A DNA stretch of 64,000 bases from Haliotis rubra (Eukaryota). How positions within the stretch are numbered: the first letter of the stretch is position 1; each line of letters begins with the position of its first letter. The stretch covers positions 24,041 to 88,040 of the forward strand of contig NW_025765324.1 in assembly GCF_003918875.1 (NCBI RefSeq). Direction: 5' to 3'. Below the pieces are notes generated by a model. It had not been told where the DNA came from. It did no database searches and saw nothing but the letters and a program-made list of their open reading frames with translations. The position numbers and the translations under genes are program-made. Shown one piece after another: positions 39,465 to 40,075 of the stretch.

Positions 39465-40075
39465 CGTGAAGATCCTGGTTAGAATTGATCTTCAGTAACC
39501 CATGCTTGTCGTAAGAGGCGACTAACGGGATCGGGTTGTCAGGCTCGCTGACTTCGTTGACACATGTCATCTAGGGCTGGGACGGGTCCAAATTTTCTAC
39601 CCGGGTACCCCGACCCCTTATTACCCTACCTACCCGGATACCCGTTATGTTAATTCCTGACATCAAATTTGCAAGAAATGGCAAATTATTCTTAAGCTCG
39701 GGGGCTAAAATTTTGGGTTTTTCAATTATCTTAACCAAGTATTATATTCAAAAGAAGTGACTGTAAATAATGTCTAAGTCGTCAAAGACAATGCAACCTT
39801 TTAATCATGAAAGAATAACATGATATTACATTGTTTAGTCTATTAGTCACATGATCATAACGGGTCCGGGTATTGAGACGGGTACCCGGGTCCAACTCAT
39901 TACCCACCCGTCCCGGGTATCCCGTCCCATCCTTAATGTCATCGTATCCTAATTGCGTAGATCAGTGCTGTTGATCACTGGATTGTCTGGCCCAGACTCG
40001 ATCATTTACAGACCGCCGCCATATAGCTGGAGTATTGCTCAGTGCGGCGTTAAACAACCAACCAACAAACAAACA
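39465..40075 (+). mobile_element. SINE-A copy, split at 39571/39936 by insertion of a MITE.
   Basis: The SINE sequence resumes exactly after the insert: …acacatgtcatc [insert] atgtcatcgtatcc…. Confidence 0.8.
39572..39935. mobile_element. hAT-like MITE of 364 bp. TIRs are TAGGGCTGGGACGGG… and …CCCGTCCCATCCTTA. It is flanked by an 8-bp TSD ATGTCATC at 39564-39571 and 39936-39943.
   Basis: A perfect 8-bp direct duplication of the host SINE sequence and TAGGG/TAAGG termini are typical of hAT elements. Subterminal gggtacccgggt palindromes are present. Confidence 0.7.

What the first reader, a model, noticed from the sequence alone, without database searches (positions are those of the whole stretch)
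39564..39943. hAT-type MITE caught nested inside a SINE with an intact 8-bp target-site duplication
The 364-bp insert has TAGGG…/…CCTTA termini with about 13-bp TIRs (GGGCTGGGACGGG and its reverse complement). It is flanked by a perfect duplication of ATGTCATC taken from the host SINE-A. This gives a clean before-and-after view and a minimum relative age: SINE-A is older than this MITE copy. It indicates hAT transposase activity in this lineage at some point.
Basis: seen in the sequence. Interest (0 to 1): 0.55.

Follow-up and report, generated by a model that had tools for sequence, protein, structure and literature searches.

The report
hAT-like transposon inside abalone SINE
A 364-bp non-coding cut-and-paste transposon of the hAT type sits inside an older retroposon copy in an abalone genome; the case is clean and well supported, but it is ordinary nested junk DNA.

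Summary
A 364-bp insert (39572-39935) is flanked by a perfect 8-bp direct repeat, ATGTCATC (39564-39571 and 39936-39943). Seven other copies of the host repeat in the same window carry this octamer once and uninterrupted, so they act as paralogous empty sites. The duplication is therefore a true target-site duplication.

The insert ends in TAGGG / TAAGG. Both ends are GC-rich and packed with ACGGG and CGGGTA motifs around a 30%-GC core with no detectable protein homology.

An 8-bp duplication plus YARNG termini are the accepted structural hallmarks of hAT elements. The assignment is structural only: I could reach no second copy and no autonomous partner.

The host is an abalone; its nanos gene is 97% identical to that of Haliotis asinina. 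The host repeat behaves like a LINE-mobilised SINE, with variable 9-14-bp duplications and simple-repeat tails, but no tRNA/5S/7SL head was detected.

Verdict: real, correctly interpreted, routine. Low novelty and low interest.

The parts
39451..39460 (+). Left target-site duplication of the host SINE copy (AACACACTTG)
   Evidence: It matches AACACACTCG at 40072-40081 in 9 of 10 positions. Other copies of the repeat carry their own TSDs of 9-14 bp.
39462..39571 (+). 5' part of the host SINE-like retroposon, ending with the left copy of the target octamer
   Evidence: It aligns with seven other copies in the window. At least three copies share the same 5' end, ACCCGTGAAG.
39564..39571 (.). Left copy of the 8-bp target-site duplication, ATGTCATC
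   Evidence: family D6. The octamer occurs once in the seven uninterrupted SINE copies.
39572..39586 (+). Left terminal inverted repeat, TAGGGCTGGGACGGG (terminal motif TAGGG fits YARNG)
   Evidence: pair I1: 15 nt, 87% complementary to 39921-39935. The motif occurs nowhere else in the window with 0-1 mismatches.
39587..39651 (.). Left subterminal region: GC-rich, with ACGGG(T), CGGGTA(C/T)CC and CCGGGT repeats
   Evidence: The first 80 bp of the element (39572-39651) are 55% GC, and the motifs are confined to the two ends.
39652..39856 (.). AT-rich core (30% GC) with no detectable protein homology
   Evidence: GC content is. ORFs are 55 aa or shorter. A six-frame translation found no protein homologue among 5.8 billion proteins. 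There is no meaningful Rfam match.
39857..39920 (.). Right subterminal region: GC-rich, with the same short motifs, largely in inverted orientation relative to the left end
   Evidence: I2, I3, I5, I7, I8; the last 79 bp of the element, 39857-39935, are 59.5% GC; block TACCCGG..ACCCGTTATG at about 60-80 nt from both ends.
39921..39935 (-). Right terminal inverted repeat, CCCGTCCCATCCTTA (reverse complement TAAGGATGGGACGGG; terminal motif TAAGG fits YARNG)
   Evidence: (I1).
39936..39943 (.). Right copy of the 8-bp target-site duplication, ATGTCATC
   Evidence: D6.
39944..40071 (+). 3' part of the host SINE-like retroposon, with a (CAAC/CAAA)n simple-repeat tail at 40056-40071
   Evidence: Other copies end in ACTAAA followed by a (CACT)n tail.
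40072..40081 (+). Right target-site duplication of the host SINE copy (AACACACTCG)

Best explanation
The 364-bp element is a non-autonomous DNA transposon with no detectable protein homology, of the hAT superfamily (MITE-sized, comparable to maize Ds1).

Shown by the sequence:
- It sits inside a pre-existing copy of an abundant SINE-like retroposon in an abalone (Haliotis) genome.
- It is bounded by 15-nt imperfect TIRs.
- It is flanked by a duplicated host octamer that is single in uninterrupted copies of the host repeat.

Inferred from the known hAT mechanism:
- A hAT transposase encoded elsewhere in the genome bound the TIRs and the subterminal ACGGG/CGGGTA repeat arrays.
- It excised the element from a donor site.
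- It joined the element's 3'-OH ends to target phosphates staggered by 8 bp.
- Gap repair then produced the ATGTCATC duplication.

The element has no evident host function. It is a fossil, or a still-mobilisable passenger, that records past hAT transposase activity. It also dates that activity to after the insertion of this SINE copy.
For: - Seven paralogous empty sites show one uninterrupted ATGTCATC, against ATGTCATC + 364 bp + ATGTCATC here.
- The duplication is exactly 8 bp, with a 13/15 TIR abutting it.
- No such TSD-plus-TIR structure appeared in 100 shuffled windows.
- The termini TAGGG and TAAGG fit YARNG. An 8-bp TSD plus YARNG is the stated hAT hallmark (PMC3014272).
- The termini resemble the Ac/Ds TIR C/TAGGGATGAAA at 8 of 11 positions each, by my own count against the Ac/Ds TIR quoted.
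- Ds1 elements are about 400 bp, with 8-bp TSDs and subterminal transposase-binding hexamers (PMC3260210).
- ACGGG occurs 6 times and CGGGTA 8 times, all within the terminal 80 bp of each end. For ACGGG the window background is about 1.06 per kb.
- Single-stranded DNA folds end to end, with z = -4.5.
- The element has no protein homology in any frame.
- hAT elements are reported as present in all mollusc genomes analysed. Zisupton, Novosib and Merlin were almost restricted to cephalopods (PMC10294476).
- The host is Haliotis: the nanos ORF is 287/295 identical to the H. asinina protein.
Against: - Only one copy is available, so neither the family consensus nor consistent 8-bp TSDs across copies could be checked.
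- No autonomous element with matching termini was found in the window, in metagenome contigs or in prokaryotic genome contigs.
- The target ATGTCATC fits only half of the hAT target consensus nTnnnnAn (T at position 2, no A at position 7).
- Subterminal repeats are not exclusive to hAT.
- Similarity to the Ac TIR (8/11) falls short of the Repbase rule of 11 terminal positions with at most one mismatch (PMC4455052).
Confidence: 0.8

Rival explanations
1. The element is a non-autonomous DNA transposon of another superfamily that also makes duplications of about 8 bp. Candidates are P, Merlin, some MULEs, Zisupton/KDZ and Novosib. In that case it was mobilised by that transposase rather than by a hAT enzyme.
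For: - TSD length alone does not single out hAT. By my own knowledge of the Wicker 2007 and Repbase classifications, P makes 7-8 bp, Merlin 8-9 bp, and Zisupton and Novosib 8 bp.
- Subterminal repeats and short TIRs occur in several superfamilies.
- No transposase partner was identified.
Against: - Both termini start with TA and fit the hAT motif YARNG.
- They do not fit the CANRG of P or the GG-type Merlin and MULE termini. Those motif definitions are from memory, not tested here.
- Zisupton, Novosib and Merlin were reported as almost restricted to cephalopods among molluscs, while hAT is ubiquitous.
- The only KDZ-like Pfam hit in the window (CxC1, E = 0.0057) lies in a translated 31-bp minisatellite and is spurious.
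Confidence: 0.12
2. The element is hAT-type, but it is not a MITE in the family sense. It would be a low-copy or unique internally deleted derivative of an autonomous element rather than a member of an amplified, homogeneous family.
For: - There is one copy in 64 kb, while the host SINE has at least eight.
- There is no copy in 46 kb of mollusc-like metagenome contigs that do carry the SINE.
- Translated searches found no match.
Against: - The sampled DNA is tiny compared with a genome that I would expect to be gigabase-scale (own knowledge, not measured here). Even thousands of copies would usually be missed in about 110 kb.
- Its size, AT-rich non-coding core and end-to-end foldback are typical of MITEs.
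Confidence: 0.25
3. No transposition occurred. The 372 extra bases would be a SINE-subfamily-specific internal segment, a chance repeat, or an assembly or recombination artefact.
For: Only one filled site was seen, and no orthologous empty site was available.
Against: - All seven other SINE copies, from both subfamilies, lack the segment and carry a single octamer.
- The insert boundaries coincide exactly with a 13/15 inverted repeat (p about 9e-7 by hand calculation).
- No comparable structure appeared in 100 shuffles.
Confidence: 0.02

Closest known systems
Maize Ds1 and Ds-like non-autonomous Ac/Ds elements (hAT superfamily)
   Same: - Both are about 400 bp with no detectable coding capacity, and both make 8-bp TSDs.
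- Both have short imperfect TIRs beginning TAGGG. Ac/Ds has C/TAGGGATGAAA; this element has TAGGGCTGGGA and TAAGGATGGGA.
- Both have short repeats containing ACGG clustered in the subterminal regions (PMC3260210).
   Different: - The host is an animal (abalone).
- Only 8 of 11 TIR positions are shared with Ac.
- The subterminal motif is ACGGG(T) / CGGGTAYCC, not AAACGG (0 copies).
- Mobilisation by a known transposase has not been shown.
Animal hAT-N / hAT MITE families as catalogued in Repbase-style libraries (for example the 32 non-autonomous hAT families of Anolis)
   Same: They share 8-bp TSDs, YARNG termini, TIRs of 11-16 nt and lengths of a few hundred bp. All are classified by termini and TSD alone (PMC3014272; PMC4455052).
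   Different: The TIR sequence here (TARGGMTGGGACGGG) matches none of the TIRs listed in the part of the Anolis table that I read. Neither TIR sequence was found in the text of any searchable paper.
Haliotis SINEs without a tRNA head (LP-SINEs of Matetovici et al. 2016). This concerns the host repeat only.
   Same: The host repeat is short and dispersed, with variable TSDs. It has an ACTAAA hexamer directly before a tandem-repeat tail, as reported for LP-SINE tails in Haliotis/Ostrea (AATATA and ACTAAA, not assigned per genus). No tRNA, 5S or 7SL head was detected.
   Different: Identity with Hdi_LP/Hmi_LP is therefore only a lead and is untested.

Membership tests
hAT superfamily (non-autonomous member) | 8-bp target-site duplication | tested here: met
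   A perfect ATGTCATC lies on both sides, bounded by non-matching bases. The octamer is single in seven uninterrupted host-repeat copies.
hAT superfamily (non-autonomous member) | Terminal motif 5'-YARNG at both ends | tested here: met
   The left end is TAGGG and the right end (reverse complement) is TAAGG. The criterion is as stated in PMC3014272.
hAT superfamily (non-autonomous member) | Short terminal inverted repeats (about 10-25 nt) | tested here: met
   The arms are 15 nt and match at 13/15, with a 9-nt perfect core (I1).
hAT superfamily (non-autonomous member) | Arrays of short subterminal repeats at both ends (transposase-binding sites in Ac/Ds) | tested here: met
   There are 6 ACGGG and 8 CGGGTA motifs, all within 80 bp of the ends and none in the core. 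Their binding function cannot be tested here.
hAT superfamily (non-autonomous member) | Target-site consensus nTnnnnAn | tested here: inconclusive
   ATGTCATC has T at position 2 but T, not A, at position 7. One site cannot test a statistical preference.
hAT superfamily (non-autonomous member) | Autonomous partner with matching termini that encodes a hAT transposase (DDE/RNase-H fold, hAT dimerisation domain) | not testable with these tools
   The TIR does not occur elsewhere in the window. Metagenome and prokaryote-genome scans found nothing. No abalone genome is reachable.
hAT superfamily (non-autonomous member) | Repbase rule: same TSD length and terminal positions 1-11 aligned, with at most one mismatch, to a classified hAT element | not testable with these tools
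   The rule is quoted in PMC4455052, but Repbase and Dfam are not available. Against the one TIR I could verify (Ac), only 8/11 positions match, so the element is not an Ac/Ds family member.
MITE (amplified miniature inverted-repeat element family) | Small size (under about 800 bp), non-coding, with TIRs and a TSD | tested here: met
   The element is 364 bp. Its longest ORF is 55 aa and no frame has a homologue. TIR and TSD are as described above.
MITE (amplified miniature inverted-repeat element family) | Many homogeneous copies in the genome | tested here: inconclusive
   There is one copy in the 64-kb window and none in 46 kb of mollusc-like contigs. The genome itself was not searchable.
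SINE (host repeat) | Short dispersed copies with variable-length TSDs and a 3' simple-repeat or A-rich tail | tested here: met
   At least eight copies of 160-260 bp lie in the window. TSDs are 9-14 bp in four copies, and tails are (CACT)n or (CAAC/CAAA)n.
SINE (host repeat) | Pol III head derived from tRNA, 5S or 7SL RNA | tested here: not met
   ARAGORN and Rfam at gathering scores found nothing in the window. Rfam at E <= 10 on a full copy gave only a chance snoRNA hit. The repeat may instead belong to the head-swapped LP-SINE type described in Haliotis.
P superfamily | 7-8-bp TSD and termini 5'-CANRG | tested here: not met
   The TSD length fits, but both termini begin with TA, not CA. The motif definition is from my own knowledge (Kapitonov & Jurka 2008) and was not verified in a held paper.

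The most novel reading that the evidence does not exclude
The element could be the first sighted member of an uncatalogued abalone DNA-transposon family that is mobilised by a non-hAT enzyme making 8-bp duplications, for example a P-like or KDZ/Zisupton-like transposase not yet described in vetigastropods. Its palindromic subterminal GGGTACCCGGG / GGGACGGG arrays would then define a new transposase-binding code. Alternatively, it could be a hAT family that is still active and polymorphic in abalone populations.
Probability: 0.1. Interest if true: 0.3.

Novelty: new member of a known kind. Interest (0 to 1): 0.12.

Why it matters
The finding matters little beyond annotation. It is a tidy example of nested transposable elements that gives a relative order of events in an abalone genome: the SINE copy inserted first, and the hAT-type insertion followed. 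It also shows that a hAT-like transposase was active after that SINE subfamily had spread. If the family proves abundant or polymorphic, it could serve as a presence/absence marker in Haliotis, and its termini could help locate the autonomous element. None of this would surprise a transposon specialist, because hAT elements and MITEs are reported as ubiquitous in mollusc genomes (PMC10294476).

Tried and rejected
- **Second copy in the window.** BLASTN of the element against the window found only itself.
- **TIR motif search.** With up to 2 mismatches there was one extra site, at 30308. It has no partner arm or subterminal repeats and I judged it chance.
- **Exact-protein look-ups.** The element's 55-aa ORF, two versions of the nanos ORF and the H. 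asinina Nanos protein are not on record. No abalone contigs could be fetched.
- **Translated search.** All six-frame open segments of the element, joined into a 401-aa query, found no hits among 5.8 billion proteins. This gave no spurious-ORF route to other copies and no coding remnant.
- **DNA pattern scans.** The pattern TGGGACGGG-N{319,349}-CCCGTCCCAKCCYTA found nothing in metagenome contigs or in prokaryotic genome contigs.
- **Control scan.** A 21-mer from the host SINE found 10 metagenome contigs (46 kb) containing mollusc-like DNA. None carries the element, so absence there is uninformative.
- **Literature string search.** Neither the TIRs nor SINE fragments occur in any searchable paper. 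The SINE paper has no supplement held. Yuan & Wessler 2011 is not held.
- **Rfam on the element.** Only chance-level hits appeared. I rejected a reading as an RNA gene or miRNA precursor.
- **Apparent large ORFs upstream.** The ORFs at 34.4-38.5 kb, with a weak 'KDZ transposase CxC1' Pfam hit, are translations of a 31-bp minisatellite, not a transposase.
- **Tc1/mariner-like motif.** The motif next to the SINE (40053-40253, minus strand) got no Pfam support.
- **Pfam scan of the whole window.** I prepared a six-frame scan for hAT domains but dropped it. Without matching TIRs in the window, a transposase fragment could not be tied to this element.

Full report
**1. The observation**

Reading 39000-40500 and extracting the element confirms the coordinates.
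- ATGTCATC lies at 39564-39571 and again at 39936-39943.
- Between them is a 364-bp block (39572-39935) that starts TAGGGCTGGGACGGG and ends CCCGTCCCATCCTTA.
- The bases just outside the two octamers differ, so the direct repeat is exactly 8 bp.

The repeat finder reports the octamer pair (D6) and the terminal inverted repeat (I1: 15 nt, 87% complementary, 334 nt apart). The arms differ at positions 3 (G/A) and 6 (C/A). The TIR therefore matches at 13/15 positions, with a perfect 9-nt core, TGGGACGGG.

**2. A true insertion with a target-site duplication**

I removed the insert and one octamer, then used BLAST to compare the joined flanks with the window. This found many copies of a repeat of about 230-260 bp that run straight across the junction.

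In the alignment of the host copy with seven others (A1), every other copy reads ...GTTGACAC-ATGTCATC-G... once, with no insert. One copy has ATGTGATC. These are paralogous empty sites. The octamer is host-repeat sequence that became duplicated when the 364 bp arrived.

I scanned the window for any perfect 8-bp direct repeat 58-2008 bp apart with at least 13/15 inverted termini immediately inside it.
- The scan returned this site and one unrelated palindromic structure at 56.3-57.0 kb.
- It returned nothing in 100 Markov-shuffled windows.
- At one fixed position, at least 13/15 complementarity has a binomial probability of about 9e-7 (hand calculation).

**3. Anatomy of the insert**

The element has three parts.
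- Both ends are GC-rich: element positions 1-80 are 55% GC and positions 286-364 are 59.5% GC.
- The core is AT-rich, at 29.8% GC.
- The ends are packed with short repeats in both orientations. ACGGG occurs 6 times and CGGGTA 8 times, and every occurrence lies within 80 bp of an end. For ACGGG the window background is 1.06 per kb on both strands.

Several blocks are inverted between the two ends at similar distances from the termini. Examples are ACCCGGGTACCC and TACCCGG(AT)ACCCGTTATG. As single-stranded DNA the element folds end to end at -55.4 kcal/mol, against -36 ± 4.3 for shuffles (z = -4.5).

There is no sign of a coding or RNA function.
- No ORF exceeds 55 aa.
- A query made of every open six-frame segment found no protein homologue.
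- Rfam gives only chance-level hits.

The element is therefore non-autonomous, with no detectable protein homology.

**4. Host genome and host repeat**

The ORF at 60561-61628 (minus strand) carries a Nanos zinc-finger domain (Pfam E = 1.1e-22). It is 287/295 identical to the Nanos-like protein of Haliotis asinina. The window is therefore abalone nuclear DNA.

The host repeat has the marks of LINE-mediated retroposition.
- Several copies share a common 5' end, ACCCGTGAAG.
- The 3' tails are simple repeats, either ACTAAA followed by (CACT)n or (CAAC/CAAA)n.
- Flanking duplications vary in length:
  - host copy: AACACACTTG / AACACACTCG;
  - copy at 30926: CTGTCATCGTATC;
  - copy at 23165: CCTTTACA(G/A)TTCT;
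  - copy at 42471: CGTAAGAGG.

ARAGORN and Rfam detect no tRNA, 5S or 7SL head. [quoted passage not shown] Whether this repeat belongs to that family could not be checked, because no consensus is held.

The host copy is about 87% identical to the local consensus, so it is not young. The inference that this SINE copy predates this insertion is logically sound.

**5. Which kind of transposon**

The published structural hallmarks of hAT elements are 8-bp TSDs and YARNG termini (PMC3014272). Both ends here fit (TAGGG, TAAGG).

The maize Ac/Ds system is the closest well-described analogue (PMC3260210).
- Its TIR is C/TAGGGATGAAA.
- It makes 8-bp TSDs.
- Its transposase binds subterminal AAACGG hexamers.
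- Its Ds1 derivatives are about 400 bp and share only the termini with Ac.

The present termini share 8/11 positions with the Ac TIR, and the subterminal motif contains ACGG, but AAACGG itself is absent. The element therefore works like a Ds1-type element but is not an Ac/Ds family member.

By my own knowledge of the Wicker 2007 and Repbase schemes, other superfamilies with duplications of about 8 bp are P, Merlin, some MULEs, Zisupton and Novosib. They are disfavoured for two reasons.
- The termini start with TA.
- A mollusc-wide survey found hAT in all genomes analysed, but found Zisupton, Novosib and Merlin almost only in cephalopods (PMC10294476).

The only KDZ-like signal in the window is a sub-threshold Pfam hit inside a translated 31-bp minisatellite. 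I reject it as spurious.

**6. What could not be done**

The decisive tests are other copies with their TSDs and an autonomous partner with the same termini. Both need the abalone genome, which none of the collections here holds.
- Exact-protein look-ups failed.
- A TIR-pair pattern found nothing in metagenome contigs or prokaryotic genome contigs.
- As a control, a 21-mer from the host SINE did find ten metagenome contigs with mollusc-like DNA. Those 46 kb hold no copy of the element, which says nothing about a genome I would expect to be gigabase-scale (own knowledge).
- No paper text contains the TIR.

**7. Mechanism**

Shown: a 364-bp TIR-bounded element sits in a SINE copy with an 8-bp duplication of the target.

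Inferred from the established hAT mechanism:
- A transposase supplied in trans recognises the TIRs and subterminal repeats.
- It excises the element.
- It integrates the element at 8-bp staggered cuts, and repair of the gaps creates the duplication.

I put 0.8 on the hAT assignment and more than 0.95 on 'cut-and-paste DNA transposon insertion'.

**8. Verdict**

- the TIR is imperfect;
- 'MITE' as an amplified family is untested;
- the host is SINE-like but no pol III head was detected.

This is a routine nested-transposon configuration in a repeat-rich mollusc genome. At most it is a new member of a known kind, and interest is low.

Noticed in passing
window 34437-38406: A 4-kb minisatellite has 129 copies of a 31-bp unit (GTGTACAGTCTGACCCACACAGCGGTAGTAG, 83% matches). 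It produces overlapping pseudo-ORFs of up to 686 aa on the minus strand and a spurious weak Pfam 'CxC1/KDZ transposase' hit.
   Followed up: yes
window 48067-49906: A second minisatellite, with about 50-60 copies of a 30-bp unit (AACTACAACAGCTTATACTCACCCCATCTC). It is strongly C-rich on the plus strand (GC skew -0.76) and again produces long repetitive pseudo-ORFs.
   Followed up: partly
window 2318-2875(-), 5678-6217(-), 9021-9569(-), 15181-15684(+): Four copies of an ORF that begins with a signal-peptide-like MKIVVVLVACLAVTAFA and continues with a Gly/Met/Tyr-rich repeat (GLYGGMGGMGG...). Three lie in tandem units of about 3.35 kb and one is inverted. There is no Pfam match. This may be a cluster of glycine-rich secreted (shell-matrix-like?) protein genes.
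   Followed up: partly
window 60561-61628(-): An intronless nanos gene: zf-nanos domain with E = 1.1e-22, and 287/295 identity to the Haliotis asinina Nanos-like protein from Met61. This identifies the source as an abalone.
   Followed up: yes
window 56220-57080: A complex foldback-like structure built from GAATAACGAA-type repeats in both orientations around the palindrome TGCTAGCA. The TSD-plus-TIR scan picked it up (56312/56985, 15/15 inverted). It is probably another non-autonomous DNA element or a foldback repeat.
   Followed up: no
window 40053-40253(-): The translation contains PIEHVWDILGRRI, which from memory resembles the C-terminal motif of Tc1/mariner transposases. It lies immediately beside the host SINE. 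Pfam gave no hit, so this remains unverified.
   Followed up: partly
window 19764-19988(-), 55407-55625(-): A second dispersed repeat whose translation reads ...RERKVAGSIPDRVIP.... It may be another SINE family. From memory the motif is box-B-like, which would suggest a tRNA-derived head. Related fragments lie at 55932-56189 and 58319-58522.
   Followed up: no
loci L001-L010 (PEAW01..., JYMV01..., Ga0208980 contigs): A 21-mer from the abalone SINE occurs in ten contigs deposited as metagenomes. Three of them carry most of the SINE at 82-87% identity. This indicates mollusc host DNA in those metagenome assemblies.
   Followed up: partly
window 39944-39965 vs copies at 42471 and 62483: The host SINE copies fall into two subfamilies just after the target octamer, GTATCC versus GGTTCC. 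The tails also differ, (CAAC/CAAA)n versus ACTAAA-(CACT)n, though not in step: 62483 has the GTATCC body but a (CACT)n-type tail. The copy that received the insertion belongs to the GTATCC type.
   Followed up: no
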